Both the position numbers and the translations under genes were made by a program. Below, piece after piece: positions 50,124 to 64,000 of a DNA stretch of 64,000 nucleotides. The notes beneath the pieces were generated by a model. That model made no database searches and had not been told where the DNA came from. It saw only the letters and a list, made by a program, of their open reading frames with translations. How positions within the stretch are numbered: the first letter of the stretch is position 1; each line of letters begins with the position of its first letter. The stretch comes from an uncultured Candidatus Saccharibacteria bacterium (lineage in GTDB: Bacteria > Patescibacteriota > Minisyncoccia > UBA6257 > CAYRSR01): the NCBI GenBank assembly GCA_964427275.1, contig CAYRSR010000003.1, positions 168-64,167 of the forward strand, read 5' to 3'.

Positions 50124-50131
50124 AGTTGTTG

Positions 50132-50203
50132 TGCGCACGCCTAGATTCGAACTAGGGACCTCTGCTTTATCAGAGCAGCGTTCTACCCCTGAACTACGTG
50201 CGC
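50132..50203 (-). tRNA. tRNA-Ile (GAT)
   Basis: Acceptor GCGCACG/CGTGCGC, anticodon stem-loop CUGCU-CUGAUAA-AGCAG. Confidence 0.85.
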
Positions 50204-50235
50204 TCTCACTAATTATTTTATTATTTTTTTTAAGT

Positions 50236-50460: not shown

Positions 50461-50464
50461 AAAT

Positions 50465-50989: not shown

Positions 50990-51053
50990 AATGGTGTTTA
51001 CAATTTAATCACAGTATCATTATAATAATACGGTATTTAAAGCTATTTAGCAA

Positions 51054-51911
51054 ATGCCTGAAATTAAAAAAATCAATTTAACTGATAGAGATTATCCAGT
51101 TTTTCTTAGAGAGATACCCTATCCTCCATCTCCGCTTTACCTAAAAGGAGTTTTTCCAGCATCGAATTTAATAAAAATTGCCATAGTGGGGACCAGAAAA
51201 CCCACTGAACTAGGGATTCATTTAGCTAAAAAAATTGCTAAAGATCTGGCTAAGCAGGGTTTGGTAATTGTTAGTGGTTTAGCTTTGGGAATTGACAGCG
51301 CAGCTCATCAAGGGTGCTTGGATGGGGGTGGACAAGCCATAGCGGTATTGGGTAGTGGTTTGGATAAAATATATCCTGTTACTAACAGAACTTTAGCTCA
51401 AAGGATTTTAAATCAAAGAGGAGCTTTAATTTCGGAATACCCCCCAGGTACTCCTGCATTACCGCATCACTTTCCAGCTCGCAATCGAATAATTAGTGGT
51501 TTATCTCAAGCAGTTGTAGTAATTGAAGCTCCTAGAAAATCTGGTGCATTAATTACAGCTAAATTTGCTTTGGAACAGAATCGGGAGGTATTTGTGGTTC
51601 CAGGACCAGCAAATCATCTTAATTATCAGGGCTCGCACTGGTTAATTAGAGAAGGAGCTAGGTTAGTTTGTACGGCAGAGCAGATTTTAGAAGATTTAAA
51701 CATTAAACCATTTCAACTAAAATTAAATCAAAAGGAAAAGATTATTCTAGAAGCTATCCAGCAAAGTAAAGTTCCTTTAACAGTTGACAAGTTAGTAGAA
51801 GTTACTAAACTTGACTTTCAAGCGGTAAATAAAAGTTTAACTACCTTGCTAGTTGAAGGATTGGTTGAGGAAACCTTAGCTGGATACCAAATAAATACAA
51901 AATCAAAATGA
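51054..51911 (+). CDS. dprA: DNA processing protein DprA/Smf
   Basis: IAIVGTRKPT...IVSGLALGIDSAAHQG...GSGLDKIYP. Confidence 0.85.
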   Translation: MPEIKKINLTDRDYPVFLREIPYPPSPLYLKGVFPASNLIKIAIVGTRKPTELGIHLAKKIAKDLAKQGLVIVSGLALGIDSAAHQGCLDGGGQAIAVLGSGLDKIYPVTNRTLAQRILNQRGALISEYPPGTPALPHHFPARNRIISGLSQAVVVIEAPRKSGALITAKFALEQNREVFVVPGPANHLNYQGSHWLIREGARLVCTAEQILEDLNIKPFQLKLNQKEKIILEAIQQSKVPLTVDKLVEVTKLDFQAVNKSLTTLLVEGLVEETLAGYQINTKSK

Positions 51912-51917
51912 AATAAA

Positions 51918-53879
51918 TTGATTTTTATATTTACTATCATGGTTTTAATCATTGTTGAATCCCCAACTAAAGCTAATACTATTCAGAAACTTCTAGGAAA
52001 AAGCTACAAAGTGGTTTGTAGCTATGGTCATGTTAGAGATCTTCCTAAAAGTAAGTTAGGGATTGATATTGAGCATAACTTTGAGCCAACTTACGTTATT
52101 CCAGTTAAAGCTCGAAAAAGGGTGAATTTTTTGAAGAAAGAAAGCAAGCAGGCAGAAAAAGTTATCCTGGCTACTGACCAAGACAGAGAAGGGGAAGCAA
52201 TAGCCTATCATCTAGCCCAAATCTTAGGATTAAAGAATGCTCCCAGAATTGTATTTAACGAAATTACCAAGTCAGCCATACTTACTGCTCTTAAAAATCT
52301 GGTTAAGATTAATCTGAATTTAGTAAATGCTCAGCAGAGTCGGAGAATATTAGACCGACTGGTTGGTTATAAACTATCTCCGTTTTTGTGGGAAAAAGTT
52401 GCCAGGAAGTTATCTGCCGGAAGAGTACAATCAGTAGCTTTACGATTAATTGTAGAAAGAGATCAGGAAATTAGAAATTTTAAACCTACTACTTATTTTA
52501 CTATAAGTGGTATTTTACTTACTTTGGCTTCTCCAAAAAGAATTATTGAGGCTGAGTTATCTAAAATAAATAATCGGACATTACCTAAACCTGGCTTTAC
52601 TGACTTAAAGAAAGTCGAAAAAATTGTTAGCGAATTAAAAACTAGAAAATTTTACCTTAAAAATTTGATTACAAAGCTGGTAAAGAAGTATCCTTTGCCA
52701 CCATTTACTACCAGCACTTTAGGACAGCAGGCAGCCAAACAACTTGGATTTTCAATGAAAAAGACTATGTATCTTGCTCAAAGTCTCTATGAAAACGGAT
52801 TAATCACTTATATGCGAACTGACTCAGTAAATCTTTCCAAGGAATCTTTAATTATGGCTGAAAAGTGGATTAAAAGTAATCTGGGTGAAAGGTACTTTGA
52901 ACAACCTAGAATTTTTAAAACCAAAACTAAACTAGCTCAAGAAGCTCATGAGGCTATTCGGCCAACTAATGTTTTTAATACTCAACCAAGTTTAGATGCA
53001 GACCAGAAAAAACTTTATGACTTAATCTGGAGGAGATTTGTTGCTTCTCAACTTCCGCCAGCTATTTTTCAAGCAACCAGTTTAGAAATATCCAGCCTGG
53101 ATGATAAGTATTTATTAAAAGCTTCAGGAAGTGTTTTAAAATTTGATGGGTTTTTAAAAATCTGGCCTAAGGAATTTCAACAAAATCAGCTTCCAGAATT
53201 AACTGAGGGAGAAAAATTAAAACTAAAGAGGACTAAGATTAATAAGCATTTAACTCAGCCTCCACCTAGATATACTGATGCTAGTTTGATTAAAGATTTG
53301 GAAAAATTTGGAATTGGTCGACCATCAACTTATGTCCCAATAATTTCAATTATTCAGGAAAGAAATTATGTTTATAAGCAACAGGGTAAATTCTATCCTA
53401 CTGAAATGGGCTTATTGGTTAATAAGATACTCACTCAACATTTTCCAGAAATTGTAGATATTTCTTTTACTGCTAAATTAGAAGAGAAATTAGACTTGAT
53501 TGCTCAGGGAAAACTTGATTGGCGTAAGGTAGTTGGAGATTTTTATTATCCGTTTGCTAAAAATTTGAAAGAGAAATATAAACAGGTTAAAAAAATTAAG
53601 GTAGAACAGAAAACCAACCTTATCTGTGAGAAGTGCGGTCGGCCAATGGTGATTAAAACTTCCAGATTTGGAGAGTTTTTAGCCTGTTCAGGATTTCCTA
53701 AATGTAAAAATGTTAAGCCGCTAAAGGAAAAAACTTATGGTAAGTGCCCTAAATGTAAGATTGGAGACATTGTAGAAAGAAGAGCTAAAACAGGCAAAAA
53801 GTTCTATGGTTGCTCCAGGTATCCTGAGTGTGACTGGGCTAGCTGGAAGTTAGATCAAAGTAATGAGAAGAGAGGTTAA
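51918..53879 (+). CDS. topA: DNA topoisomerase I
   Basis: TOPRIM N-terminus, active-site region and C-terminal Cys4 zinc ribbons (CEKCGRPM…CSGFPKC; CPKC…CSRYPEC). Confidence 0.9.
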   Translation: MIFIFTIMVLIIVESPTKANTIQKLLGKSYKVVCSYGHVRDLPKSKLGIDIEHNFEPTYVIPVKARKRVNFLKKESKQAEKVILATDQDREGEAIAYHLAQILGLKNAPRIVFNEITKSAILTALKNLVKINLNLVNAQQSRRILDRLVGYKLSPFLWEKVARKLSAGRVQSVALRLIVERDQEIRNFKPTTYFTISGILLTLASPKRIIEAELSKINNRTLPKPGFTDLKKVEKIVSELKTRKFYLKNLITKLVKKYPLPPFTTSTLGQQAAKQLGFSMKKTMYLAQSLYENGLITYMRTDSVNLSKESLIMAEKWIKSNLGERYFEQPRIFKTKTKLAQEAHEAIRPTNVFNTQPSLDADQKKLYDLIWRRFVASQLPPAIFQATSLEISSLDDKYLLKASGSVLKFDGFLKIWPKEFQQNQLPELTEGEKLKLKRTKINKHLTQPPPRYTDASLIKDLEKFGIGRPSTYVPIISIIQERNYVYKQQGKFYPTEMGLLVNKILTQHFPEIVDISFTAKLEEKLDLIAQGKLDWRKVVGDFYYPFAKNLKEKYKQVKKIKVEQKTNLICEKCGRPMVIKTSRFGEFLACSGFPKCKNVKPLKEKTYGKCPKCKIGDIVERRAKTGKKFYGCSRYPECDWASWKLDQSNEKRG

Positions 53880-53921
53880 AAATCTTTGAAATTTTTTAAT
53901 GCCTGATTTAAAATATTAATA

Positions 53922-54587
53922 GTGATTAGTTTTGCTTGCTTTGCTCCTCATCCTCCAATAATTTTACCTGAAATTGGTTCGGCTGAAGATAGAAAGAAAG
54001 TAAAGTTAGTCATTGAAAGTCTGAAAAAGCTGGGAGAAAAGTTTAGAAAAGTAGATCCGGACTTGGTAATTATTTCTTCTCCACATCCGGATTGGGGAAT
54101 AAAAGTGCCGTTATATTTTTTAATTTCAGAAAATCAGAGTTTTAAATATCAGAATTATCAATCTCCAAGTAATCTGAAAATTGAACCATCTTACCGATTT
54201 ATCTATCCTGTTTTAACTACTTTGGATTCTTGCCGGCAGCATTTTGAGTGGGGAAAGAATTTAAAGATTAAGGATTACAAGCTAAAGGTGGCTTTGGTAG
54301 CTAGCGGAGATATGTCTCATTGTCTGAAGTCTGAAGGACCTTATGGTTTTCACCCAGATGGGCCAAAGTTTGATAAGGCTTTTATTGAAGCCTTAAGGAA
54401 AAAAGACCTTGAAACAATTTTTGAGTTAAACGATTTATATCCGGAAGCTGGAGAATGTGGACTCCGGTCATTTTGTTTTGTTTTAGGAATCTTAGAAGGC
54501 TCTGAATTAAACTGGCAACCAAAGATTTTAGCCTATCAAGGCCCATTTGGAGTAGGGTATTTAGTAGTAGAATTTAATCTTACTTAA
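53922..54587 (+). CDS. LigB/Memo-like (class III extradiol dioxygenase superfamily) protein
   Basis: The N-terminus (CFAPHPPIILPEIG) and size fit the superfamily. The match is weak. Confidence 0.35.
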   Translation: MISFACFAPHPPIILPEIGSAEDRKKVKLVIESLKKLGEKFRKVDPDLVIISSPHPDWGIKVPLYFLISENQSFKYQNYQSPSNLKIEPSYRFIYPVLTTLDSCRQHFEWGKNLKIKDYKLKVALVASGDMSHCLKSEGPYGFHPDGPKFDKAFIEALRKKDLETIFELNDLYPEAGECGLRSFCFVLGILEGSELNWQPKILAYQGPFGVGYLVVEFNLT

Positions 54588-54593
54588 ACTAAG

Positions 54594-55055
54594 ATGAGAA
54601 AACAGTTTAAAGTTTTTATTGGTTCTGACCACGCCGGATTTAAATTAAAAGAAATAATTAAAAAATATCTGGATAAATGTGGGTATAATGTTGAAGATTT
54701 GGGAAATTATTCCTTGGATCCGAATGATGACTATCCGGATTTTGCCAAAAAAGTTGCTTTAGCAGTAGCTAAAGGTAAGGGCTTAGGAATAATAATTTGT
54801 GATAGTGGAGTAGGAGTTTGTATTGTAGCTAATAAAATTAAGGGTGTTAGAGCAGTAAATGCTTATAACTTAAAGATAGCTAAAGCATCCAGAGAACATA
54901 ATCATACTAATGTTTTATGTTTAGGTCAGAAATATTTAACTGTCAATTTGGCTAAAAGAATTGTTAGAACCTGGCTCAATTCAAGTTTTGATTTAGCTCC
55001 CAGGCATTGTCGTAGAGTGGATAAAATTAAAAAAATTGAACAGGAAAATCTATGA
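54594..55055 (+). CDS. rpiB: ribose-5-phosphate isomerase B
   Basis: The KVFIGSDHAGFKLKE start and the GVGVCIVANKI block. Confidence 0.88.
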   Translation: MRKQFKVFIGSDHAGFKLKEIIKKYLDKCGYNVEDLGNYSLDPNDDYPDFAKKVALAVAKGKGLGIIICDSGVGVCIVANKIKGVRAVNAYNLKIAKASREHNHTNVLCLGQKYLTVNLAKRIVRTWLNSSFDLAPRHCRRVDKIKKIEQENL

Positions 55056-55696
55056 AAGAAATTATTCCGGCAATTTTAACCAACAACTTACAGGACTTAA
55101 AACAAAAGTTAGAAAAATTAGCTGGGTTGTTTAGCTGGGCTCAAATTGACCTGATGGATGGAAAATTTGTTCCAAATACTTCAATTGGTTTGGAGGAACT
55201 AGCCAGAGTTTCAATCAAACTCAATCTAGAAATTCACCTAATGGTTATGAATCCAGAAAATTTTTTTAGCCAATGTCAAAGAGTCGGAGCTAAACGGGTA
55301 GTTTTTCATCTGGAAGCTACTAAAAATCTGGATTATGTTTTAAAACAGATGGAAAGATTCAATTTTCAAAGAGGAATAGCTTTAAATCCAGAAACTCCAC
55401 CTGAACAACTCAGGCCTTATCTGGATAGGTTGGATTCAGTTTTGATTTTGGGAGTTCATCCAGGATTTCAGGGACAAAAGTTTATTCCTGAAGTGTTAAA
55501 AAAAGTTGAAAAGGTAAAGAAATTGTCTCCAAAAGTAAAAATAGGAATTGATGGTGGGATTAATCTGGAGAATGTAGAGATGGTAGCTAAATTTGATCCG
55601 GATTTCTTGATTATTGGCAGTGCTTTGTTTGCAGAAAGTAATTTGAAACAAACTTTAAAAAAATTTAAACAGAAGATTCAATCAATTAAAAAATGA
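55052..55696 (+). CDS. rpe: ribulose-phosphate 3-epimerase
   Basis: DLMDGKFVPN and the C-terminal GIDGGIN. Confidence 0.88.
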   Translation: MKEIIPAILTNNLQDLKQKLEKLAGLFSWAQIDLMDGKFVPNTSIGLEELARVSIKLNLEIHLMVMNPENFFSQCQRVGAKRVVFHLEATKNLDYVLKQMERFNFQRGIALNPETPPEQLRPYLDRLDSVLILGVHPGFQGQKFIPEVLKKVEKVKKLSPKVKIGIDGGINLENVEMVAKFDPDFLIIGSALFAESNLKQTLKKFKQKIQSIKK

Positions 55697-57528
55697 CTTT
55701 AGAAAAATTAAAGAAGATAGCTAAATTAATCAGGTACTGGATTTTACTGGAGACTACTCAGGCTGGTTCAGGTCACTTGACTTCTTCTCTTTCAGCAGTT
55801 GAATTAATGACCGGTTTAATGTTTGGGGGTATTTTCCGATTTGATGTTAAAAACCCAAAGCATCCTAATAACGACAGATTGATTTTTTCCAAAGGTCATG
55901 CTGCTGCACTATTATATGCTTTATGGGCTATTGCTGGAGTTTTAGATGAAAAAGAATTAGAAACCTTCCGGAGATTTGATAGTTTCCTTGAGGGGCATCC
56001 AACTCCAAGATTTAAATATTGTGAAGCAGCTACTGGTTCGCTAGGTCAAGGTTTGTCTGTTGGGGTTGGAATGGCTTTAAATGCTAAATTTGACCAGCTT
56101 CCTTATCGAACTTATGTCCTTTTAGGAGACAGCGAGATGACCGAAGGTTCTAATTGGGAAGCTATCCAGGTTGCTGCTCATTATAAGCTGGATAATTTAA
56201 CAGCTATCATAGATGTTAATCGACTGGGACAAACTGGAGAGACTATGTATGGTCATAATCTTAAAGCTTATCAAGAGAGAATTTCAGCTTTTGGCTGGCA
56301 AACTATTCTGGTTGATGATGGTCATTCTTTATCTCAAGTTCTTTCTGCTTACATGCGGGCATTAAAAGTCAAAGGAAAGCCCACTGCAATTTTAGCCAAA
56401 ACTATTAAAGGCAAAGGAGTTAGTTTTTTAGAAAATAAAATTGGCTGGCATGGAAAAGTTTTAGATCAGGAAAAATTTGAACTGGCAGTAAGAGAGCTTG
56501 GTAAAATTGATAAACATATTCGGGCTGAAATTAAACCACCAAAGAATCTTAAGCCAGAAAAGTCAATTTCTCGAAAAATTAAGCCAGTTTTCTATCCACC
56601 AGGTACTTTACTTGCTACAAGAAAAGCTTATGGAAATGCTCTGGTTAGAATTTATCCTGGATTTCCTGAAATGGTAGTTTTAGATGCTGAGGTTTCTAAT
56701 TCCACCTTTGCTCAAACTTTTAAACAAAGATACCCTCAAAGATTTTTAGAAATGTTTATTGCTGAACAAAATATGGTTGGGGTAGCTTTGGGTTTAAGTC
56801 TGCGAGGTAAAATCCCATTTGTTTCTACTTTTGGAGCTTTTTTCACCCGAGCTCATGACCAGATTAGAATGTCTCAGTACTCCAATGCAAACATCAAATT
56901 TGTTGGCTCACATGCAGGGGTTTCTATTGGTCAAGATGGACCTTCCCAAATGGGTTTAGATGATATTGCTATGTTTAGAGGAATTTTAAATAGCGTAGTT
57001 TTGTATCCAGCTGATGCAATAGCCTGTGAGAAATTGGTTGAAAAAGCAGCTAAATATCCAGGAATGGTTTATATACGTACTACCAGAAAGGATACCCCAA
57101 TTATTTATTCTTTAGATGAAGAATTTTCCATTGGTGGAAGTAAGGTATTGAAAAAAAGTCGGAAAGATTTAGTTACAGTAATTGCTGCTGGTATTACTCT
57201 TTACCAAGCACTTTCCGCTTACCAGGAATTAAAGAAAAAAGGAATTTTAATTCGAGTAATTGATTTATACAGTATAAAACCAATTGATAAAAAGACTCTA
57301 ATTCAATCAGCTAGGCATACTAAAGCAATAGTTACAGTAGAGGATCACTATCCTGCGGGAGGGTTAGGTGAAGCAGTAAAAACTACTCTTTCTAATGTGA
57401 ATATACCGGTTTATTCGCTAGCAGTGCAGAAAATACCTAGGAGCGGCCTGCCAGAAGAGCTTTTAGATTTTGAGCAAATTTCAAAAGACACAATTGTTAG
57501 AAAGATAAAAGAAATAATTCGTAAATAA
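55693..57528 (+). CDS. tkt: transketolase (compact single-chain form)
   Basis: TPP-binding GSGHLTSSLS…GDSEMTEG and a C-terminal pyrimidine-binding domain. Confidence 0.88.
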   Translation: MTLEKLKKIAKLIRYWILLETTQAGSGHLTSSLSAVELMTGLMFGGIFRFDVKNPKHPNNDRLIFSKGHAAALLYALWAIAGVLDEKELETFRRFDSFLEGHPTPRFKYCEAATGSLGQGLSVGVGMALNAKFDQLPYRTYVLLGDSEMTEGSNWEAIQVAAHYKLDNLTAIIDVNRLGQTGETMYGHNLKAYQERISAFGWQTILVDDGHSLSQVLSAYMRALKVKGKPTAILAKTIKGKGVSFLENKIGWHGKVLDQEKFELAVRELGKIDKHIRAEIKPPKNLKPEKSISRKIKPVFYPPGTLLATRKAYGNALVRIYPGFPEMVVLDAEVSNSTFAQTFKQRYPQRFLEMFIAEQNMVGVALGLSLRGKIPFVSTFGAFFTRAHDQIRMSQYSNANIKFVGSHAGVSIGQDGPSQMGLDDIAMFRGILNSVVLYPADAIACEKLVEKAAKYPGMVYIRTTRKDTPIIYSLDEEFSIGGSKVLKKSRKDLVTVIAAGITLYQALSAYQELKKKGILIRVIDLYSIKPIDKKTLIQSARHTKAIVTVEDHYPAGGLGEAVKTTLSNVNIPVYSLAVQKIPRSGLPEELLDFEQISKDTIVRKIKEIIRK

Positions 57529-57534
57529 AACTTT

Positions 57535-58104
57535 CTATTTGTATTGGGATAGAATAATATCTAAAGCTTTTTGAGTTCTTTCCTCAACTGTTCCAGTTAT
57601 TAGATAGTAATTAATTTTTTTCTGCTCTAAAAGCTGTTTAACTTCTTTAGAAATTTTATAAGTTAATTGCTTAAATATTCTCACTCCATCATCTTTAAAA
57701 TCAAATTCAATTGGCAAAAAGAAATGTAAGTTATAGCTGCTAATTTCTGGTTCTACTATTTCAGTAATTCTTTTTTGGATTAGAAAATATCTTTTATTAG
57801 CTAAATAGTCGGTAGACTTTGGTTTGTATAGCTTGCTGTAAACATAGGTTAAATAACTTGCTGAGTCACAAATGATAAAATCAGGATTTTTTCTTTCTAC
57901 TCTTTTTTCAATTTCAATCTGACCAATAACTATGTTAAGCTGGTCTTTAATGTCCTTTGGTGGCCCATATTGAATAATAAAGCTTCTGGCATATTCACTT
58001 ACTAGTCTGGTCTGGTAGTTCTTTTGGTTAAGTTTTTTAACTAAAGATTTAGCCAGAGTGGTTTTTCCGGTGCTTGGACTGCCGACAATACAAATTTTTT
58101 TCAT
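57535..58104 (-). CDS. P-loop NTPase (NadR/AAA_28-like kinase domain)
   Basis: Walker A GSPSTGKTT, 189 aa. Confidence 0.45.
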   Translation of the reverse strand: MKKICIVGSPSTGKTTLAKSLVKKLNQKNYQTRLVSEYARSFIIQYGPPKDIKDQLNIVIGQIEIEKRVERKNPDFIICDSASYLTYVYSKLYKPKSTDYLANKRYFLIQKRITEIVEPEISSYNLHFFLPIEFDFKDDGVRIFKQLTYKISKEVKQLLEQKKINYYLITGTVEERTQKALDIILSQYK

Positions 58105-58165
58105 TATTTTAATTAAACTTTAATAGGTTAATTTTGTCAAATTGATTTACTTTTCAAAGAAAGTT

Positions 58166-58174
58166 TGGTATAAT
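58166..58174 (+). promoter_or_regulatory. extended -10 promoter TGgTATAAT, 7 nt before the ATG of the small peptide ORF (leaderless)
   Basis: TGGTATAAT at 58166-58174 and ATG at 58182. Confidence 0.45.
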
Positions 58175-58181
58175 CAACCAA

Positions 58182-58286
58182 ATGTTAAATCAAAAGGATT
58201 TTCTAGTTTTTTCAGTGCTTCTTTTTTTAGTTTTGTTTTTTACTTTAGGATTTTACTCTGAGGTTTTTCCTTTTTCATTCAGTTAA
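58182..58286 (+). CDS. 34-aa hydrophobic peptide (candidate precursor or small membrane peptide)
   Basis: MLNQKDFLVFSVLLFLVLFFTLGFYSEVFPFSFS. It is not in the ORF track because it is under 60 aa. It heads the radical-SAM cluster. Confidence 0.35.
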   Translation: MLNQKDFLVFSVLLFLVLFFTLGFYSEVFPFSFS

Positions 58287-58336
58287 GTGTGGTTTAGATT
58301 TTCAAAATTACTAACAGCTTATTTTGAAGAAGATTT

Positions 58337-59371
58337 ATGGGTTATTTACTGCTTAAGTGCTTGTTATTTAGCTTAACAATTGTTTTGGGAATTTTAAGTA
58401 GTTTAACTGATATTAAAAGACATCAGATTAAAAATTCCTTAATACTTTCTGGAATAGCAGCAGGGTTGGTAATTTATCTTATTTTTGTTACTTTTGGTAA
58501 TTTAAGGTTAAGATATGACTTTTTCTTAAATTTGATAATTGCATTTACCATTAGTTTTGGGTTATATCTTTTAAGAATTTGGCCTCCTGGAGATGCTAAA
58601 TTGTTTTTGCTTTTTTCATTTTTGATGCCTTTTTCTAACTCTTTTAAAATTTACCCCTCGCTTTTTTTGTTTTTTAACATTTTTATAGCTGGCGGGCTGG
58701 TGATTTTATTAAGCTTATTATTAAATTTTATTTTTTCTCCAAGACAAGCAATTAAAGCTATGATAACTAAAAAAAGTTTAAGATTTTTTTCAGAAACTTT
58801 TATAATAGTTTTTTCAATTAGCTGGTTATTCTGGTATTTACTAGAAAAACTAAATTTAAATTTTAATTTTTGGTTAATGTTCGTTCTTTACTTAATTTAT
58901 CTTTCGATTTATAAAGCAATTTACAGGCTAAAAAAGATACCTCTGGCTTTAGGAATTATTTTGATTACTGGAATAAGCTTAAGGTTTTTGCTTCAAAGGC
59001 AAATATTTATTCAACCAGGTTATTTATTTTCCAGCTTAAAGTATAGTATTTTTTTTATTTTGGTTTATACCATATTTCAGGGGTCTAAAGATATATTTAT
59101 GACCGGAAGAGTTCCGGTTCAAAAGCTTTCTGCCTATATGAAAGTAGCCGCTGACTTATATGATAAGCAGGGAAATTTATTGTTAAAAAAAGACACTTTA
59201 CTTACTCAAGAAAATATAAAGGAATTAAAAAGGATTGTTTGGGATAAAAAGGTTGACTTTCAAACTATTCCAGTTAGAAGAATAATCCCGTTTGCGCCTT
59301 TAATGCTTCTAGGAGCAGTTTTAAGTTACACTAATTTTCTAGTTTATTTTTCAAATTTAATTCATAGATAA
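58337..59371 (+). CDS. A24-family prepilin-peptidase-like polytopic membrane protein with an extra C-terminal domain
   Basis: TDIKRHQIKNSLIL (D[IL]xxxxI[PK]N-like first Asp motif) and PPGDAKLFLL (GxGDxKL-like second Asp motif). Confidence 0.45.
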   Translation: MGYLLLKCLLFSLTIVLGILSSLTDIKRHQIKNSLILSGIAAGLVIYLIFVTFGNLRLRYDFFLNLIIAFTISFGLYLLRIWPPGDAKLFLLFSFLMPFSNSFKIYPSLFLFFNIFIAGGLVILLSLLLNFIFSPRQAIKAMITKKSLRFFSETFIIVFSISWLFWYLLEKLNLNFNFWLMFVLYLIYLSIYKAIYRLKKIPLALGIILITGISLRFLLQRQIFIQPGYLFSSLKYSIFFILVYTIFQGSKDIFMTGRVPVQKLSAYMKVAADLYDKQGNLLLKKDTLLTQENIKELKRIVWDKKVDFQTIPVRRIIPFAPLMLLGAVLSYTNFLVYFSNLIHR

Positions 59372-60348
59372 TGGGAAGCTATCCAGAAAATATAACTATT
59401 GAAGTAACTACTGTCTGTAATCAAAGATGTGAGTTTTGTTTTTATGCTCAAAAAAAACTAAAAAATTTATTCCTTCCAAAATCTAGAATAATTGATGCTT
59501 TAAATGAAGCTAAAAAATTAAAAGTAGAAAGTATTAGATTTACTGGAGGTGAACCGCTTTTAAGAAAGGATATAGTAGATATTTTAAGTCAAACTAAGGA
59601 TTTAGGATTCTATGTATTTTTAAATACCAATGCTACACTAATTAATGATGATTTGATAAGGAAAATAGAAAACAATGTAGATAATGTTTTGATTTCTCTG
59701 CCAGCAGCAAGCAAGTTGATAGCTAAAAAAATTGGTAATTCAAATATTTCTTTAAAATTAAAAAATATTAGGAAACTGGTTAGGTCACGAATTCCTCATA
59801 TCAGAGTAGGGACGATTATTTCTAGATATTTGCTTAAAAATTTCAATCAGTATTTTAATTTAATTAATTACTTAGGAATAAAACGGTGGGAATTTTATAG
59901 GCCGATGATAGAAAAAAAGATACTTAAAAAACTACCAGAATATAATATTTCCAGGCAAGATATTTTGAAAGTAATGAATTTTTGCCTGTGGCTTAGAAAG
60001 AAGGGGATAGCAGCCTACATTCCCAACGCAGTTCCTTTTTGTATAACCGATGATAAAAAATTGGCTATTTACAGTTTAAAAGGAGGACAGTTTGATGATG
60101 GCAGAGAAAGATTAGTGTTGGATGTTAGAGGATACTTTAAACCGAGCTATTATATCGATATAAACCTGGGAGAAACTATAACCTCAGCTATAAATCATCC
60201 ATTTATCAAAAAAGTTCATAGTGAATCCTGGCTTTCCGAAGTTTGTCAGAAATGTCCATTTGTAAACAAATGTGGAGGGGGAAGTAGATTCTGGGCTTAT
60301 CAAAAGTATGGAGATTATTTTGCTAAAGACCCACTGATGAAACAATGA
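59371..60348 (+). CDS. radical SAM / SPASM-domain protein
   Basis: N-terminal CNQRCEFC (CX3CX2C) and C-terminal CQKCPFVNKCGGG. The start overlaps the upstream stop. Confidence 0.75.
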   Translation: MGSYPENITIEVTTVCNQRCEFCFYAQKKLKNLFLPKSRIIDALNEAKKLKVESIRFTGGEPLLRKDIVDILSQTKDLGFYVFLNTNATLINDDLIRKIENNVDNVLISLPAASKLIAKKIGNSNISLKLKNIRKLVRSRIPHIRVGTIISRYLLKNFNQYFNLINYLGIKRWEFYRPMIEKKILKKLPEYNISRQDILKVMNFCLWLRKKGIAAYIPNAVPFCITDDKKLAIYSLKGGQFDDGRERLVLDVRGYFKPSYYIDINLGETITSAINHPFIKKVHSESWLSEVCQKCPFVNKCGGGSRFWAYQKYGDYFAKDPLMKQ

Positions 60349-61046
60349 AGTTTGTATTTTTAAGAGATGATGATGTTTTTGAGCTGGATTGGAAACTTCG
60401 AAAATTTTGCCAGCTAATTTTAGCTCTGAAAATGCCAGTAATTTTTGGAGTAATTCCCAAAAAGATTACTCCGGCTACAGTTAATTTTTTAAATCAGTTA
60501 AAAGAAGAATATCCCGATTTAATTGATATTGTTCAGCATGGCTATCAACATAAAAATTATAGTCAAAATTCAAATTACAAATACGAGTTTGGTCCGAAAA
60601 GAACTTATCTTCAACAAAAAAACGATATTCTGGCTGGCAAAAAATTGATGGAAAAATATTTTGGTAAAAATTTTACTCCTGCTTTTATTCCTCCATTTCA
60701 TGGATATAATTTAGATACTTTGAAAGTTATAAACGAACTTGGCTATAAAATCTTTTCAGCCGGAAAGAAAACTAACTTTCCAAGCAAATTTTTTTTAGAT
60801 TTACCAGCTAAAATAAGTTTAAATATTTATTTAAAAAATCAGACCAGAACTTTAAATTTAAAAGAAATGATTATAAAGTTTACTAATGCTTGTTTTAACT
60901 CTAAAGTTTTGGGAATAGTTTTACATCATCAAGATTTGGATGACTTTAAATCAATTGGTAAATTTTTTAGATTTATTCAAATGAAAAGTAAGAAAAGCGA
61001 AATAAAGTTAATTAATTTTTCAGCTATACTAAAATTAAGAAAATGA
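60345..61046 (+). CDS. putative polysaccharide-deacetylase-like protein (DUF2334-like)
   Basis: LRDDDV...HGYQH motifs. The call is weak. Confidence 0.35.
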   Translation: MKFVFLRDDDVFELDWKLRKFCQLILALKMPVIFGVIPKKITPATVNFLNQLKEEYPDLIDIVQHGYQHKNYSQNSNYKYEFGPKRTYLQQKNDILAGKKLMEKYFGKNFTPAFIPPFHGYNLDTLKVINELGYKIFSAGKKTNFPSKFFLDLPAKISLNIYLKNQTRTLNLKEMIIKFTNACFNSKVLGIVLHHQDLDDFKSIGKFFRFIQMKSKKSEIKLINFSAILKLRK

Positions 61047-62026
61047 AAACACTACCTATTCAAGATATCACTTTAGAAATTACTAATCGATGCAATTTGA
61101 AATGCAGGATGTGCAGTATTTGGCAAGAGAAAGAAAAAAAGTATCTTGATATAAACCAAATTAGAGATTTGGTTCTTTCTCCAGTTTTTAATAAACCAAT
61201 TGGCTCAATATCTTTAACCGGAGGAGAGCCGTTTATGCATCCGGATATTGGTAAAATTTATAAGTTTTTGGTTTTATGTAAGGCCAAAAAATTAATCAGA
61301 AACATTGGAATTTATTCTAATGGCTATGATACCAGTACTATTTTAGATTTTTTAAAAGAAAATAAAAAATATCTGAGTAATTTAAGTCTTGGAATTAGTC
61401 TTGATGGAAAAGAAAAAATTCATAATTTTTTAAGAGGCAGAAATGATGCATTTCAAAAGACTCTGGATACTATTATGAAAGTATCCAGCTTATATTCGCA
61501 GGTAAATTTAGAAATAAAATTTACCATCAGTCCATATAACTTTGACCAGATTCTGGATATTTATAAGCTTTGCAGGAAAAATAATTTGTTTTTCAGTCCT
61601 AAATTTGCCGAAAGCAAGACTAAGCATTACTATCATAAGGCTGGTTCTAGTAAGCTTAAAACAAGTCTTAATTTAAATCAAAAAAGACAAGTAAAAAACG
61701 ACTTATTAAAAATATTTAAAGCTGAAGGTAAACAAGAAAAGCCAGTGGTTAATCTAAAAGTTATTGCTGTATTAATTAAATTTTTGAACTATGGCCTTGA
61801 TTTTATCAAGACCTGCCATACCCCATCTTTTTCCTTGTTTGTTAGCTCTAGCGCGAAAATTTTTCCTTGTGTGTATATGCCGGCATTAGTCAGTTTGAAA
61901 CAGAAAAATTGGTTTAAAAAATTTGAATCAAAAAAGTATTTAGAAATAGTAAATAGAGCTCTTTCTGGTGCCTGTCCTAAATGTCTGGCTTATCACGGAT
62001 TTTTAAAAGATTTTAATTTGGATTAG
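61043..62026 (+). CDS. radical SAM protein with a C-terminal Cys cluster
   Basis: CNLKCRMC near the N-terminus and a C-terminal CPKC. It is a paralog of 62029. Confidence 0.7.
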   Translation: MKTLPIQDITLEITNRCNLKCRMCSIWQEKEKKYLDINQIRDLVLSPVFNKPIGSISLTGGEPFMHPDIGKIYKFLVLCKAKKLIRNIGIYSNGYDTSTILDFLKENKKYLSNLSLGISLDGKEKIHNFLRGRNDAFQKTLDTIMKVSSLYSQVNLEIKFTISPYNFDQILDIYKLCRKNNLFFSPKFAESKTKHYYHKAGSSKLKTSLNLNQKRQVKNDLLKIFKAEGKQEKPVVNLKVIAVLIKFLNYGLDFIKTCHTPSFSLFVSSSAKIFPCVYMPALVSLKQKNWFKKFESKKYLEIVNRALSGACPKCLAYHGFLKDFNLD

Positions 62027-62028
62027 TT

Positions 62029-63060
62029 ATGAAAGAAATAGATTTAATGATAAGAATTACTAATCGTTGTAATTTGGAATGTAAAATGTGCCGATTCAGG
62101 GAATCTTCTAAAATTCCTAGAATTGACCTGAGTTTTAGTCAGATAAAAAGACTGGTTTCAGGTGTTACTAGTCGATTTTTTATTAGAAATTTAACTTTGA
62201 CTGGTGGAGAACCATTTTTAAATCCAGAAATTGAAAAGATTTATAAATATTTAGCAGCTCAGTGTAAAAACAATAAAATTAGAAGGTTAAAATTGTCAAC
62301 TAATGGGTATTTAACCAAGAAGGTAATTCAGTTTTTGACTCAAAATAAATCCAGTATATCTAACTTATTTTTACATTTTAGTCTGGATGGTCCTTTAAAG
62401 GTTCACAATTTAATTAGGGGAAAAGATGATGCTTATCAGAAAACTGATTTAACAATAAATAAGATTAGGTTGCTTTTTCCAGAACTTAATCTAGGAGTAG
62501 GTTTTACTATCACTCCAGCTAACTATCAACATATTGAATATGTATATGAATATTGCTTAAAAAGAAATATTCAATTCTTTCCAGATATTATGGTAATAAC
62601 TGACTTTGGTGTTGACTTGAGCAGAACTTTAACTAAAAGAAATAAGGATTTGAAGTCTGTTTTTTCAAAAGTTAAGGTGAAATTACCTGAGATTGAACAA
62701 ATTTACACCAGAAATCAGCGAAGTCAAATAATAAAATGCTTATCTGCCATCTTAAAACAGGAAGTTAAAGAAAAGAACCGAATAGTTCAATTAAGTGAAC
62801 TGGTTAGAGTGATTAAGTTAATCAGTCATGGAAAATCAATAATAAAATCATGTAAACTTCCAATGTATTTTCTTTTGGTTAGAGAAAGTGGAGATATTTT
62901 TCCTTGTCCGTATATGTGGAATTTACCAATTGCTAATTTAAATCAGGAAAATTTTGAAAAGCAAATTTTTGGAAAATTACACCTGAATATAATAAAAAGA
63001 GGACTAAAACTTAATTGTCCCAAATGTTTTGGAAATTGTGGTTACTTAGAATTAGAATAA
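62029..63060 (+). CDS. radical SAM protein with a C-terminal Cys cluster (paralog)
   Basis: CNLECKMC near the N-terminus and CPKCFGNCGY at the C-terminus. Confidence 0.7.
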   Translation: MKEIDLMIRITNRCNLECKMCRFRESSKIPRIDLSFSQIKRLVSGVTSRFFIRNLTLTGGEPFLNPEIEKIYKYLAAQCKNNKIRRLKLSTNGYLTKKVIQFLTQNKSSISNLFLHFSLDGPLKVHNLIRGKDDAYQKTDLTINKIRLLFPELNLGVGFTITPANYQHIEYVYEYCLKRNIQFFPDIMVITDFGVDLSRTLTKRNKDLKSVFSKVKVKLPEIEQIYTRNQRSQIIKCLSAILKQEVKEKNRIVQLSELVRVIKLISHGKSIIKSCKLPMYFLLVRESGDIFPCPYMWNLPIANLNQENFEKQIFGKLHLNIIKRGLKLNCPKCFGNCGYLELE

Positions 63061-64000
63061 AACTGATTAATCTTTTGAATTACATATTTGATTTCAGCTG
63101 GCTTAATTAAAGGAAAGATTGGCAGAGCCAGGCCATGTTTATGGTAGTATTTTGCTCCTGGAAAGCATTGTTTTTTGATAAATGGTTTGAAGATTTTAAA
63201 TGTATAAACTGGCTCGAATTGAAATTCTGCTCCTTCAATTCCATTTCTTTCTAAAAATCTAGCCAGTTTGTCTCTTTTTTTTGCGTAGATTAGATAATTC
63301 TGCCAGATGGTCTTTTCATAAGGCTTATCTTTTATTAACTTCACTTGTTTGATTTTACTGAGGTATTTTCCATAGATTCTTGCTGAAAGTAGTTTATTTT
63401 GCTCAATCTTTTTGGCTAGCTTAGTTTTTATTTCAATAAATGGCAGTGAATTGTATGAAAAATAAGGAGTAGGTCTTTTGGTGGAAATAATCAGCTGACT
63501 GTCCAGCTTATAAAGAGTTCTTTTGTGAATTTCAGTTTTTATTTTTTTGGAGTTGAAATTTATCGCTCCTCCTTCGCCAAAAGTTGAGATAGTTTTTCTA
63601 AAATTAAAACTGAAACAGCCAATATCACCAAATGAACCAAGTTTTTTATTTTGATATTCACTCCCATGAGCCTGGCAGGCATCTTCAAGTATTTTTAAAT
63701 TATGTTGCTTAGCTAATTCTAAAATCGGATAGGGATTAAGACTTTTTCCGTACATATAGGATATTATTATCACTTTGGTTTTTTTACTAATTTTTCTTTT
63801 CAGGTCTTTTAAATTTGGACTTAAATCTGGATTTATATCTATAAACACTGGCTTGGCTGAAAGACCCAGTATTGATAAAACCGTGGCTGGATGAGCGGTA
63901 ACTGGTAAAATTACCTCATCATTTTTTTTAACTCCTAAAACTGACAATCCAATCCAGATACAGCTGGTTCCAGAATCAGTAAACACCGAATATTTAGTTT
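63042..64000 (-). CDS. DegT/DnrJ/EryC1/StrS-family PLP-dependent sugar aminotransferase (N-terminus beyond the window)
   Basis: DACQAHGSEY...GSFGDIGCFSFNFRKTIS covers the lysine-region block. The ORF continues past 63986. Confidence 0.75.
   Translation of the reverse strand, partial: TKYSVFTDSGTSCIWIGLSVLGVKKNDEVILPVTAHPATVLSILGLSAKPVFIDINPDLSPNLKDLKRKISKKTKVIIISYMYGKSLNPYPILELAKQHNLKILEDACQAHGSEYQNKKLGSFGDIGCFSFNFRKTISTFGEGGAINFNSKKIKTEIHKRTLYKLDSQLIISTKRPTPYFSYNSLPFIEIKTKLAKKIEQNKLLSARIYGKYLSKIKQVKLIKDKPYEKTIWQNYLIYAKKRDKLARFLERNGIEGAEFQFEPVYTFKIFKPFIKKQCFPGAKYYHKHGLALPIFPLIKPAEIKYVIQKINQFYSNSK

What the first reader, a model, noticed from the sequence alone, without database searches (positions are those of the whole stretch)
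58166..63060. Candidate peptide- or glycan-modification cluster: leaderless 34-aa peptide, A24-peptidase-like membrane protein, three radical SAM enzymes and a deacetylase-like protein
A strong extended -10 (TGgTATAAT) sits 7 nt before an unlisted ORF encoding MLNQKDFLVFSVLLFLVLFFTLGFYSEVFPFSFS. Then comes a tight, start-stop-overlapping operon. Its products are a polytopic protein with both prepilin-peptidase Asp motifs, a radical SAM enzyme with a clear SPASM-type CX2CX5C…GGG motif, a DDD/HGYQH deacetylase-like protein, and two paralogous radical SAM enzymes with C-terminal CxxC clusters. SPASM radical SAM enzymes are the hallmark maturases of ribosomally synthesised and post-translationally modified peptides (RiPPs), and an intramembrane aspartyl peptidase could serve as the leader protease. 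The architecture matches no named RiPP class, and a precursor without Cys would be unusual. Alternatively, the three radical SAM enzymes together with the convergent DegT aminotransferase could build a modified sugar for pilin or S-layer glycosylation.
Basis: partly seen in the sequence, partly recalled or inferred. Interest (0 to 1): 0.72.

Follow-up and report, generated by a model that had tools for sequence, protein, structure and literature searches.

The report
Variant His-Xaa-Ser peptide maturation cluster
The five-gene operon is real, but it is one arm of a larger 13-gene cluster that matures a His-Xaa-Ser repeat peptide encoded just past the window's end, an undescribed variant of the recently characterised HXS anti-phage system that carries its own prepilin-peptidase-like protease and sugar-type tailoring enzymes.

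Summary
The operon at 58337-63060 is as described: an A24-like membrane protein, radical SAM enzyme rSAM1, a DUF2334/NodB-like hydrolase, and paralogous rSAM2 and rSAM3, with start-stop overlaps. None of the three radical SAM enzymes reaches any curated family cut-off.

The same contig (identical over 9112 nt) continues past the window. It then carries DegT, a GT28_C glycosyltransferase, an AMP-ligase-like gene and a 285-aa membrane-anchored protein. These are followed by an 87-aa HxsA3-like precursor, HxsB (376 bits, cut-off 370), a small HxsD-related protein and HxsD.

This whole architecture recurs in candidate phyla radiation (CPR) bacteria, Omnitrophota, Planctomycetota and DPANN-type archaea:
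- HxsB is present in 12 of 29 loci that hold an rSAM1 ortholog, including this window's own locus; most of the rest are short contigs.
- The A24-like gene recurs in at least five phyla.
- DUF2334 and rSAM2 are often fused into one protein.
- The precursors share a conserved leader (FLxxExG), a hydrophobic helix and an HxS-rich tail ending in SY.

Verdict: the peptide-modification (RiPP-like) reading is partly right, but with the wrong precursor. This is a new variant of the His-Xaa-Ser (HXS) system. No canonical HxsC is present; rSAM1 takes its place in most loci.

The parts
58146..58174 (+). Promoter-like site, TTTACT-17 nt-TATAAT with a TG extension. It is the probable operon promoter.
   Evidence: 10 of 12 matches; the only site with TG. 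The extended -10 is kept in L170 (TGATATAAT) and directly upstream of the A24-like gene in L006. Function is not shown.
58182..58286 (+). 34-aa hydrophobic ORF (MLNQKDFLVFSVLLFLVLFFTLGFYSEVFPFSFS). It is lineage-specific and not the precursor; whether it codes for anything is undecided.
   Evidence: It is intact in L170, with 17 substitutions (5/3/9 by codon position), 7 synonymous and 7 non-synonymous codons, and indels only outside the ORF. It is absent in L006 and L002. It has no family hit.
58337..59371 (+). A24-family (GxGD-type) polytopic membrane aspartyl peptidase homolog, 344 aa, with a soluble insert before the last helices. It is the candidate leader peptidase for the Hxs precursor.
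   Evidence: PF01478 31.4 bits against a cut-off of 26.5. D25 and D86 are conserved. The only high-probability fold match is FlaK 3s0x (probability 0.93-0.97, but E 0.3). Orthologs lie next to rSAM1 or Hxs genes in L002, L006, L007, L013, L095, L168, L169, L172 and L173.
59371..60348 (+). rSAM1: a radical SAM enzyme of an unnamed family with one Cys4 auxiliary site (C224, C292, C295, C301). It is the second maturase that stands where HxsC stands in canonical HXS systems.
   Evidence: No NCBIfam cut-off is reached. AlphaFold2 pLDDT is 95, and the best folds are anSME, CteB, SuiB and PqqE. hhalign against canonical HxsC gives probability 95.9 %, E 5e-9, and includes the PFCI and CxxCx5CGG motifs. 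It lies next to HxsB and the precursor in L007, L008, L013, L014, L088, L090, L091, L092, L167, L168, L169 and L172.
60345..61046 (+). DUF2334/NodB-like metal-dependent hydrolase (deacetylase-type), translationally coupled to rSAM1 and rSAM2.
   Evidence: PF10096 50.4 bits and PF01522 32.1 bits. R7, D9, D10, H65, H69, P116-P117-H119 and H194-H195 are invariant. It is fused to rSAM2 in L007, L087, L172 and in P0138, P0141-P0143, P0145, P0148.
61043..62026 (+). rSAM2: a radical SAM enzyme with a C-terminal C...C...CxxC site, the partner of DUF2334.
   Evidence: PF04055 68 bits. The best NCBIfam hits (SkfB 74, twitch 66, HxsC 63 bits) are all far below their cut-offs. The family is small and repeatedly fused to DUF2334.
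62029..63060 (+). rSAM3: a lineage-specific paralog of rSAM2 (38 % identity).
   Evidence: The relatives L002 and L006 have only one copy.
63042..64000 (-). DegT/DnrJ/EryC1-family PLP aminotransferase, convergent with the operon. Its 3' part lies in the window; its start lies beyond the window end (window-equivalent 64151).
   Evidence: PF01041 187 bits. The full gene is in L001 at 8154-9263. It is conserved next to GT28_C in L002, L006, L172 and L173.

Best explanation
The operon at 58337-63060 is the in-window half of a conserved cluster of about 11.5 kb and 13 genes. The cluster matures a short His-Xaa-Ser-type precursor peptide. That precursor is 87 aa, HxsA3-like, and encoded on the same contig at window-equivalent 67356-67619, outside the window.

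Shown by homology and synteny:
- HxsB, HxsD, a small HxsD-related protein and the precursor form the core.
- No canonical HxsC is present. In most loci rSAM1 takes its place; rSAM1 belongs to an unnamed family with an anSME-like fold and one auxiliary-cluster site.
- The A24-like peptidase, the DUF2334-rSAM2 pair, a GT-B glycosyltransferase, a DegT aminotransferase, an AMP-ligase-like enzyme and a membrane-anchored protein of 285-297 aa travel with these genes.

Inferred mechanism:
1. In the cytoplasm, HxsB (probably with HxsD) and rSAM1 recognise the conserved Lys-rich leader (FLxxExG). They install radical-mediated modifications in the His/Ser/Cys-rich C-terminal core.
2. DUF2334-rSAM2/rSAM3, the glycosyltransferase, DegT and the ligase add further tailoring, possibly an amino-sugar or acyl group on Ser.
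3. The A24-like GxGD protease removes the leader near the invariant Gly, six residues before the hydrophobic helix, as the peptide enters the membrane.
4. This leaves the HxS tail outside the cell. An AxA site after the helix would alternatively allow release by signal peptidase I.

By analogy with the characterised HXS system, the product may act at the cell envelope, for example against phage DNA entry. This last step is speculation.
For: Locus continuity:
- L001 is identical to the window over 9112 nt and continues 6.3 kb further.

Hxs components on that contig:
- HxsB scores 376.2 bits against a cut-off of 370.
- HxsD (TIGR03976) scores 39.8 bits (E 4e-10, below the cut-off of 50) and has a precomputed PF27806 hit.
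- The precursor matches HxsA3 at 33.7 bits.

Precursor family:
- 15 examples were aligned. E and G are invariant in the leader, and the hydrophobic stretch starts at +6/+7, except in the two tandem L088 copies (+13).
- Mean pairwise identity is 0.40 in the leader, 0.14 in the next 26 residues and 0.36 in the last 8 residues, which usually end HxSxxSY.
- The L167 member passes the HxsA4 cut-off (69.9 bits against 55).
- The window-locus and L172 leaders are nearly identical (LKNFLKDESGLMSKEN), although their rSAM1 proteins are only about 46 % identical.

Synteny:
- The same gene set and order occur in the archaeal locus L173 and in L172, L002 and L006.
- Minimal operons also exist: A24-like, HxsD, HxsB, precursor, rSAM1 in L013; and HxsB, precursor, rSAM1 in L014 and L091.
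- In the HMM table of 29 rSAM1 loci, counting this window's own locus L001, HxsB is present in 12, an HxsA-like peptide without HxsB in 2 more (L009, L017), A24-like in 11 and DUF2334 in 12.

Other support:
- DUF2334-rSAM2 fusions.
- The rSAM1 fold resembles peptide- and protein-modifying SPASM enzymes, and rSAM1 has a remote relation to HxsC.
- For the canonical HXS system, N-terminal processing of HxsA and a +8 Da modification both depend on HxsB, HxsC and HxsD (PMC13128918).
Against: - The precursor and the Hxs genes are outside the window, 4-7 kb from the operon and on the other strand, so co-regulation is not shown.
- The window-locus precursor has only two strict HxS triplets and falls below the HxsA3 cut-off.
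- HxsD is below its NCBIfam cut-off.
- The leader does not look like a canonical class III signal. It has an acidic E-x-G instead of K/R-G, followed by six polar residues before the helix, and E at +5 is not conserved. A24 cleavage at that site is therefore conjecture.
- The E-x-G motif is also present in loci where no A24-like gene was seen (L167, L014).
- The Elusimicrobia loci L003-L005 have GT28_C, rSAM1 and DUF2334 but no Hxs gene within 8 kb.
- The archaeal locus L173 lacks an rSAM1 ortholog.
- No chemistry, cleavage or phenotype has been tested.
Confidence: 0.7

Rival explanations
1. A free-standing sugar or glycan pathway. The three radical SAM enzymes, the NodB-like deacetylase, DegT and the GT28_C transferase would build and transfer a modified amino sugar for pilin, S-layer or cell-wall glycosylation. 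The A24-like protein would be an ordinary prepilin peptidase, and the Hxs genes would merely be neighbours.
For: - DegT scores 187 bits, GT28_C is present, and the CE4-type motifs are intact.
- In the Elusimicrobia loci L003-L005, the GT28_C-rSAM1-DUF2334 triad sits among an epimerase/dehydratase, a polysaccharide deacetylase and B12-radical SAM genes, with no Hxs gene within 8 kb.
- Fold matches also include BlsE and DesII, which act on sugar nucleotides.
Against: - rSAM1 sits inside Hxs operons that have no glycosyl genes at all (L013, L014, L091).
- The full 13-gene arrangement, including the Hxs genes, is repeated in bacteria and archaea.
- No nucleotidyltransferase or NDP-sugar 4,6-dehydratase is in the locus.
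- The top fold matches of rSAM1 are peptide- and protein-modifying enzymes.
- L167 shares the Elusimicrobia-type neighbours and has the Hxs genes alongside.
Confidence: 0.15
2. The leaderless 34-aa peptide at 58182-58286 is the precursor, modified by the three radical SAM enzymes and cut by the A24-like peptidase.
For: - The ORF is directly behind a conserved extended -10.
- It is intact in L170, with substitutions biased to third codon positions and indels only outside it.
Against: - It is absent upstream of the homologous clusters in L006 (25-nt spacer) and L002, and no tblastn hit was found in any other locus.
- It has no Cys, His or Ser-rich core and no similarity to the precursors that co-occur with these enzymes.
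- Its composition is what translation of T-rich DNA gives.
- It evolves faster (84 % DNA identity) than the flanking genes (91-93 %).
Confidence: 0.04
3. A composite island. The in-window operon and the Hxs module would be two independent radical SAM systems that tend to sit together in radical-SAM-rich islands of small-genome organisms, without sharing a substrate.
For: - Related loci hold many radical SAM genes of several families (about 9 in L007; L169).
- GC content of 58-64 kb (27-30 %) is below that of the 10 kb just upstream (34 %), as in an acquired island; other stretches of the window (40-50 kb) are equally low.
- The gene complement varies between loci.
Against: - Order and orientation are conserved between a CPR bacterium and an archaeon.
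- rSAM1 is directly adjacent to HxsB and the precursor in minimal operons.
- No second candidate precursor was found in the window or in L001.
Confidence: 0.1

Closest known systems
HXS anti-phage system (HxsD-HxsB-HxsC-HxsA) of Pseudomonadota (Li et al., Nat Commun 2026, PMC13128918; predicted earlier by Haft and Basu as TIGR03976-03979)
   Same: - An HxsB ortholog passes the equivalog cut-off.
- An HxsD homolog sits directly upstream.
- The precursor has His-x-Ser motifs near its C-terminus and an N-terminal export or processing region.
- Two radical SAM maturases act together.
- N-terminal processing is part of maturation in the characterised system.
   Different: - There is no HxsC ortholog (best score 63 bits against a cut-off of 268); the rSAM1 family stands in its place.
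- The precursor is 67-140 aa, has no peptidoglycan-binding domain and has a conserved FLxxExG leader.
- Gene order is D-D'-B-A rather than D-B-C-A.
- It adds a dedicated A24-like peptidase, the DUF2334-rSAM2 pair, a glycosyltransferase, DegT and an AMP-ligase.
- It occurs in CPR bacteria, Omnitrophota, Planctomycetota and DPANN-type archaea rather than Pseudomonadota.
- Its function is untested.
NCBIfam HxsA3 / HxsA4 precursor families (NF038309, NF038313)
   Same: The leader and the HxS tail match these models. The L167 relative passes the HxsA4 cut-off.
   Different: The window-locus peptide scores 33.7 bits, below the HxsA3 cut-off of 65. Its core is Cys-rich with few HxS repeats. No publication describing the accessory genes of these variants turned up in the paper searches run here.
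SPASM/twitch radical SAM peptide maturases (anSME, CteB, SuiB, PqqE, SkfB)
   Same: The CX3CX2C core is present, the predicted fold matches over the full length (TM 0.72-0.76), and the C-terminal motif is CX2CX5C.
   Different: Only four auxiliary Cys are conserved. The SPASM model matches in part and below its cut-off. The short form has no RRE-like N-terminal domain, whereas the long forms carry an N-terminal extension of about 115 aa with conserved Cys residues.
Type IV prepilin / preflagellin peptidases (PilD, FlaK, PibD; MEROPS A24)
   Same: The Pfam A24 hit is above its cut-off. Both catalytic Asp motifs are conserved. The protein is polytopic, with a soluble insert as in the archaeal FlaK/Arc_PepC type.
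   Different: - The active-site motif is [AP]GD rather than GxGD.
- The protein is very divergent, with no sequence hit in the PDB.
- The presumed substrate lacks the K/R-G / hydrophobic +1 class III signal.
- It is encoded with radical SAM maturases, not with pilus or archaellum genes.
Aminoglycoside-type logic (BtrM glycosyltransferase, BtrD deacetylase, BtrN radical SAM dehydrogenase, BtrS DegT aminotransferase). Recalled from memory as an analogy only.
   Same: It combines a glycosyltransferase, a deacetylase, a twitch-type radical SAM enzyme and a DegT aminotransferase.
   Different: No orthology was found; BtrN is only a weak sequence match (E 5e-5). The acceptor here would be a peptide. 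Nothing was tested.

Membership tests
HXS / His-Xaa-Ser system | HxsB radical SAM/SPASM maturase (TIGR03978) | tested here: met
   L001:12786-14198(-) scores 376.2 bits against a cut-off of 370. It lies on the same contig as the window but outside it (window-equivalent 67674-69086).
HXS / His-Xaa-Ser system | HxsC radical SAM maturase (TIGR03977) | tested here: not met
   rSAM2 scores 63 bits and rSAM3 43 bits against a cut-off of 267.9. HxsC is not among the best 25 hits of rSAM1. rSAM1 is only remotely related to a canonical HxsC (hhalign probability 95.9 %, E 5e-9; BLASTP E 2e-4).
HXS / His-Xaa-Ser system | HxsD small protein (TIGR03976 / PF27806) | tested here: inconclusive
   TIGR03976 scores 39.8 bits (E 4e-10), below the cut-off of 50. 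A precomputed PF27806 hit is listed. Orthologs lie next to HxsB in 9 related loci.
HXS / His-Xaa-Ser system | Precursor or effector with tandem His-Xaa-Ser repeats | tested here: inconclusive
   The 87-aa peptide matches HxsA3 at 33.7 bits against a cut-off of 65 and has two HxS triplets. It shares the leader and the SY tail with relatives that have 3-20 repeats, one of which passes the HxsA4 cut-off.
HXS / His-Xaa-Ser system | [quoted passage not shown] | tested here: not met
   The order is HxsD, HxsD-related, HxsB, precursor. The precursors are 67-140 aa and have no such domain. The canonical features are taken from PMC13128918.
HXS / His-Xaa-Ser system | Anti-phage activity by blocking DNA entry | not testable with these tools
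   PADLOC-DB 2023 has no HXS model. Only generic radical SAM similarity to pVip was found.
SPASM-domain radical SAM RiPP maturase | CX3CX2C radical SAM core | tested here: met
   C16, C20 and C23 are invariant in 62 sequences. PF04055 scores 81.5 bits.
SPASM-domain radical SAM RiPP maturase | SPASM domain with seven Cys binding two auxiliary clusters (TIGR04085 / PF13186) | tested here: not met
   For rSAM1, TIGR04085 scores 22.6 bits against a cut-off of 27 and covers only model positions 37-87 of 93. There is no PF13186 hit, and only four Cys are conserved. For rSAM3 the score is 13.9 bits, and rSAM2 has none.
SPASM-domain radical SAM RiPP maturase | Overall fold like anSME, CteB or SuiB | tested here: met
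   Model pLDDT is 95.1. The Foldseek top hits are 4k37, 5why and 5v1q, with E about 1e-13 and TM 0.72-0.76.
Peptidase A24 (prepilin/preflagellin peptidase) | Pfam PF01478 above the gathering score | tested here: met
   31.4 bits against 26.5, with residues 14-123 aligned to model positions 3-103 of 104.
Peptidase A24 (prepilin/preflagellin peptidase) | Two catalytic Asp, the second in a GxGD motif | tested here: inconclusive
   D25 and D86 are conserved, but the second motif is W-x-[AP]-G-D-A-K-L-F (PPGD in the window), with no first Gly.
Peptidase A24 (prepilin/preflagellin peptidase) | FlaK-like membrane fold | tested here: inconclusive
   Model pLDDT is 74. FlaK 3s0x is the only high-probability hit (0.93-0.97; TM 0.49-0.60 on the FlaK length), but E is 0.3-0.4.
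Peptidase A24 (prepilin/preflagellin peptidase) | Substrate with a class III signal (basic leader, G at -1, hydrophobic from +1) | tested here: not met
   The candidate substrates have an invariant E-x-G followed by about six polar residues before the helix, and E at +5 is not conserved. Cleavage itself cannot be tested here.
CE4 / NodB-type deacetylase (including DUF2334) | Pfam hits and the Asp-Asp plus His-x3-His metal motif | tested here: met
   PF10096 scores 50.4 bits (cut-off 26) and PF01522 scores 32.1 bits (cut-off 23.1). D9, D10, H65 and H69 are invariant. The substrate is unknown.
Nucleotide-sugar biosynthesis cluster | Nucleotidyltransferase and/or NDP-sugar 4,6-dehydratase next to the DegT aminotransferase | tested here: not met
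   Neither is among the genes called in L001, L002, L006 or L173. DegT itself is present (187 bits).

The most novel reading that the evidence does not exclude
A new class of multi-radical-SAM peptide maturation system shared by CPR bacteria, Omnitrophota and DPANN archaea. In it, a prepilin-peptidase-like GxGD intramembrane protease would serve as the dedicated leader peptidase. A fused NodB-hydrolase/radical SAM enzyme, a glycosyltransferase and an aminotransferase would decorate a membrane-inserted His-x-Ser peptide. The product would be a surface-displayed, glycosylated HxS peptide acting as an envelope barrier to phage DNA or as a metal-binding factor in organisms with tiny genomes.
Probability: 0.3. 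Interest if true: 0.8.

Novelty: new variant of a known kind. Interest (0 to 1): 0.6.

Why it matters
- The HXS system was shown only in 2026 to be a radical-SAM-matured anti-phage effector, and it was reported as 99.7 % confined to Pseudomonadota. The cluster described here shows that a structurally different Hxs-type system is spread through CPR bacteria, Omnitrophota, Planctomycetota and DPANN-type archaea.
- In the canonical system the protease that trims HxsA is unknown. Here a dedicated A24-type intramembrane protease is encoded in the operon. That gives a concrete, testable candidate for leader removal. As far as the paper searches run here show, it would also be the first pairing of a prepilin-peptidase homolog with radical SAM peptide maturases.
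- The recurrent DUF2334-radical SAM fusion and the attached glycosyltransferase/aminotransferase point to chemistry not yet described for ribosomal peptides.
- For annotation, the result also shows that the precursor of a RiPP-like cluster may lie several kilobases away on the other strand.

Tried and rejected
- **Curated family assignment of the three radical SAM enzymes.** No NCBIfam model reaches its cut-off. The W-cofactor maturase, viperin, PqqE, MoaA and SkfB hits are similarity to the radical SAM core only.
- **Viperin or defence-system membership through PADLOC.** Only generic pVip hits of 30-93 bits appeared, with no system context. Rejected.
- **The 34-aa ORF as precursor.** Rejected on lack of conservation beyond an 88 %-identical relative.
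- **The precursor as a type IV pilin-like protein.** The window-locus peptide has G|LMSKE with Glu at +5. Across 15 precursors, +5 is not conserved and +1 to +6 are polar. Rejected as a canonical class III signal.
- **Sequence searches of the PDB.** The A24-like profile and the GT28_C protein gave nothing, and DUF2334 gave one weak NodB hit.
- **Rfam scan of the window.** Only tRNAs were found; no riboswitch lies in the 5' region.
- **More DNA downstream through rSAM2 and rSAM3 look-ups.** Both were 'not on record', so the locus beyond HxsD is known only to L001 position 15460.
- **First structure job.** It was re-run with permitted rows.
- **Organism name.** 'CPR/Patescibacteria-like' is inferred from the nearest named relatives (Berkelbacteria, Saccharibacteria, Falkowbacteria) and from the low GC content.

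Full report
**1. What is in the window**

- A promoter-like site, TTTACT-17-TGgTATAAT, lies at 58146-58174. It is the only site in the region with a TG extension. Promoter-like sites overall are no commoner than in shuffles (25 found, 30 expected).
- A 34-codon ORF lies at 58182-58286.
- Five same-strand genes follow: 58337-59371, 59371-60348, 60345-61046, 61043-62026 and 62029-63060. They are joined by TAATG or ATGA overlaps or a 2-nt gap.
- A convergent DegT gene runs off the window end.

Pfam gives the following:

| Gene | Pfam hit |
|---|---|
| A24-like | Peptidase_A24, 31.4 bits (cut-off 26.5) |
| rSAM1 | Radical_SAM, 81.5 bits |
| hydrolase | DUF2334 50.4 bits; Polysacc_deac_1 32.1 bits |
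| rSAM2 | Radical_SAM, 68 bits |
| rSAM3 | Radical_SAM, 62 bits |
| DegT | 187 bits |

None of the three radical SAM proteins comes near any NCBIfam equivalog cut-off. The best hits are 86, 74 and 64 bits against cut-offs of 170-650.

- The C-terminus of rSAM1 matches just the second half of TIGR04085 (22.6 bits, cut-off 27).
- Only four non-core cysteines are invariant in 62 family members (C224, C292, C295, C301).
- The AlphaFold2 model (pLDDT 95) does superpose over its whole length on anSME, CteB, SuiB, PqqE and ChlB (TM 0.72-0.76).

**2. The locus continues beyond the window**

A metagenome contig (L001) is identical to the window over the 9112 overlapping bases and extends 6.3 kb further. 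In order, it encodes:
- DegT, then a GT28_C (GT-B) glycosyltransferase;
- an AMP-ligase-like protein;
- a 285-aa protein with an N-terminal membrane anchor;
- an 87-aa peptide;
- a 470-aa radical SAM/SPASM enzyme;
- a 77-aa protein;
- a 148-aa protein.

NCBIfam identifies several of these:
- The 470-aa enzyme is HxsB (TIGR03978, 376.2 bits, cut-off 370).
- The 148-aa protein is HxsD-like (39.8 bits, E 4e-10, cut-off 50). A precomputed Pfam HxsD hit is also listed.
- The 77-aa protein is weakly HxsD-related.
- The 87-aa peptide is HxsA3-like (33.7 bits, cut-off 65).

The peptide sequence is MKLADKIKSKVKKELKNFLKDESGLMSKENILKVAIGSAAILGLIQAGNAEAGCSHSNSCSIESKDIGGGCYEVYTTHSNHCSHSSY.

No Hxs gene and no HxS-rich ORF lies inside the window itself.

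**3. Synteny elsewhere**

Loci were gathered by protein searches, exact-protein look-ups and scans of genome and metagenome contigs. They were then scored with HMMs built from this locus. Among 29 loci with a clear rSAM1 ortholog, counting this window's own locus L001:
- HxsB is present in 12.
- An HxsA-like peptide without HxsB is present in 2 more (L009, L017).
- Most of the remaining loci are contigs that end within a few kilobases.

Minimal operons exist:
- A24-like, HxsD, HxsB, precursor, rSAM1 in an Iainarchaeum genome (L013).
- HxsB, precursor, rSAM1 in a Chloroflexota genome (L014) and in L091.

The full arrangement seen here is: A24-like, [rSAM1], DUF2334, rSAM2, a further radical SAM enzyme; converging on GT28_C and DegT; then the AMP-ligase; then the 285-297-aa protein, precursor, HxsB, small HxsD-related protein and HxsD. 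It is repeated almost gene for gene in an archaeal MAG (L173, which lacks rSAM1 itself) and in L172. It recurs in truncated form in the CPR relatives L002 and L006.

The A24-like gene is adjacent to rSAM1 or the Hxs genes in:
- the CPR group;
- Omnitrophota (L168);
- Planctomycetales (L007);
- Iainarchaeota (L013);
- Altiarchaeota (L169, where it is called Arc_PepC);
- L095, L172 and L173.

DUF2334 and rSAM2 are fused into one protein of about 565 aa in L007, L087, L172 and six database clusters. This argues that the two act on the same substrate.

Related loci carry up to about nine radical SAM genes, plus MiaB-like enzymes, a kinase and a methyltransferase.

**4. The precursor family**

Fifteen peptides lying next to HxsB (or next to rSAM1, where HxsB was not found) were collected and aligned. 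They share the following features:
- A Lys-rich N-terminus.
- The motif [FL]Px[IV]KKx[IL]xx[FY][LIV]xxExG, in which E and G are invariant.
- A hydrophobic stretch of about 15 residues that starts at +6/+7 after the Gly (+13 in the two tandem L088 copies), often followed by an AxA-like site.
- A variable middle region.
- A His/Ser-rich end with 1-20 HxS triplets, usually finishing in (G/S/A)SY.

Mean pairwise identity is 0.40 in the leader, 0.14 in the next 26 residues and 0.36 in the last eight. A conserved leader with a variable core is the usual signature of a ribosomal precursor peptide.

The L167 peptide passes the HxsA4 cut-off (69.9 bits against 55).

The window-locus leader is nearly identical to that of L172, although their rSAM1 enzymes are only about 46 % identical.

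**5. The 34-aa ORF**

In L170, whose A24-like protein is 88 % identical, the ORF is intact. It has 17 substitutions (5/3/9 by codon position), 7 synonymous and 7 non-synonymous codons, and indels only outside the ORF. It may therefore encode a small lineage-specific membrane peptide.

In L006 the same extended -10 sits 31 nt from the A24-like start, with only 25 nt between the genes. L002 has no such ORF. The ORF does not travel with the cluster and has none of the precursor features. It is rejected as the substrate.

**6. Relation to the known HXS system**

[quoted passage not shown] It was shown in 2026 to defend E. coli against phages by blocking DNA entry. Its 214-aa HxsA has a signal peptide and a peptidoglycan-binding domain. 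It undergoes N-terminal processing and a +8 Da modification at an SHRSS motif, both of which need HxsB, HxsC and HxsD. HxsC binds HxsD. The system was reported as 99.7 % Pseudomonadota (PMC13128918).

Here HxsC is missing:
- No radical SAM protein of the locus reaches TIGR03977 (best 63 bits against a cut-off of 268).
- The rSAM1 family aligns with a canonical HxsC from a Methylobacter plasmid only at profile level (probability 95.9 %, E 5e-9). That alignment does include the PFCI and CxxCx5CGG motifs.
- rSAM1 therefore stands where HxsC stands without being its ortholog.

The paper searches turned up no description of the A24-like, DUF2334-rSAM2, glycosyltransferase or DegT accessory genes, nor of Hxs-type systems in CPR or DPANN organisms.

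**7. Mechanism and its status**

Shown by homology and synteny: a radical SAM peptide-maturation cluster of the Hxs type, with an A24-family peptidase and sugar-type enzymes as conserved members.

Inferred:
- HxsB/HxsD and rSAM1 modify the C-terminal core in the cytoplasm.
- The A24-like protease removes the leader at or near the invariant Gly at the inner face of the membrane. Both catalytic Asp motifs are conserved. The FlaK fold match is suggestive but not significant.
- The NodB-like hydrolase, rSAM2/rSAM3, the glycosyltransferase, DegT and the ligase tailor the peptide.

Weak points:
- The leader is not a canonical class III signal.
- An AxA site offers signal peptidase I as an alternative.
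- The Elusimicrobia loci show the GT28_C-rSAM1-DUF2334 triad without Hxs genes within 8 kb.
- The biological role (envelope barrier to phage, metal binding or other) is open.

**8. Verdict**

It is wrong on the precursor and on the claim that no named class fits. The sugar-pathway alternative captures real members of the cluster but not its organising principle. The locus is a new variant of a known kind, of moderate to high interest.

Noticed in passing
L007:12-1709, L087:1217-2908, L172:7077-8789; proteins P0138, P0141-P0143, P0145, P0148: DUF2334 (NodB-like hydrolase) and rSAM2 are fused into one protein of about 565 aa in several lineages. This is a domain combination with no described function.
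   Followed up: partly
L088:2005-2415 and 2406-2840: Two tandem HxsA-like precursors with 18 and 20 HxS repeats follow HxsB. Both end in CY rather than SY.
   Followed up: no
L007:11304-11927, L167:14775-15281, L168:14647-15213 and 15235-15858: Secreted proteins that share an N-terminal motif T(T/N)YYPSPxGxY sit just upstream of HxsD in three loci. No family hit was found, and no counterpart was seen in the part of L001 that is available.
   Followed up: partly
L167:15346-18382, L168:15877-18427, L007:4694-5959: A MiaB-like (UPF0004 plus radical SAM) gene, in two loci followed by RsmE-type methyltransferase and AMMECR1/Memo genes, lies next to the Hxs module. It may be a further conserved neighbour.
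   Followed up: no
rSAM1 homologs P0006-P0100 (about 440 aa), alignment A1 columns 1-130: Most rSAM1 family members outside the CPR group carry an N-terminal extension of about 115 aa with a conserved PxCLxPxAxxH...CxxC...CPG motif. The window protein and other short forms lack it.
   Followed up: partly
window 58001-64000 compared with 50001-58000: GC content drops to 27-30 % in the cluster, against 34-35 % just upstream. That would fit horizontal acquisition, and the same architecture occurs in archaea (L173). Other stretches of the window (40-50 kb) are equally low in GC.
   Followed up: partly
window 53922-57528; L170:3552-7197: Upstream lie a LigB/Memo-like gene and pentose-phosphate genes (RpiB, Rpe, transketolase). 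The transketolase is one 611-aa gene in the window but is split into 366-aa and 246-aa genes in the close relative L170.
   Followed up: no
window 58337-59371, residues 256-306: The soluble insert of the A24-like protein weakly matches the C-terminal part of a NosR-family c-di-GMP phosphodiesterase response-regulator model (23.6 bits, cut-off 400). The corresponding protein in L169 is called Arc_PepC. The role of this insert is unknown.
   Followed up: no
window 3958-4232, 50052-50203 and four further sites: Rfam finds eight tRNA genes in the window and nothing else. No riboswitch precedes the operon.
   Followed up: yes
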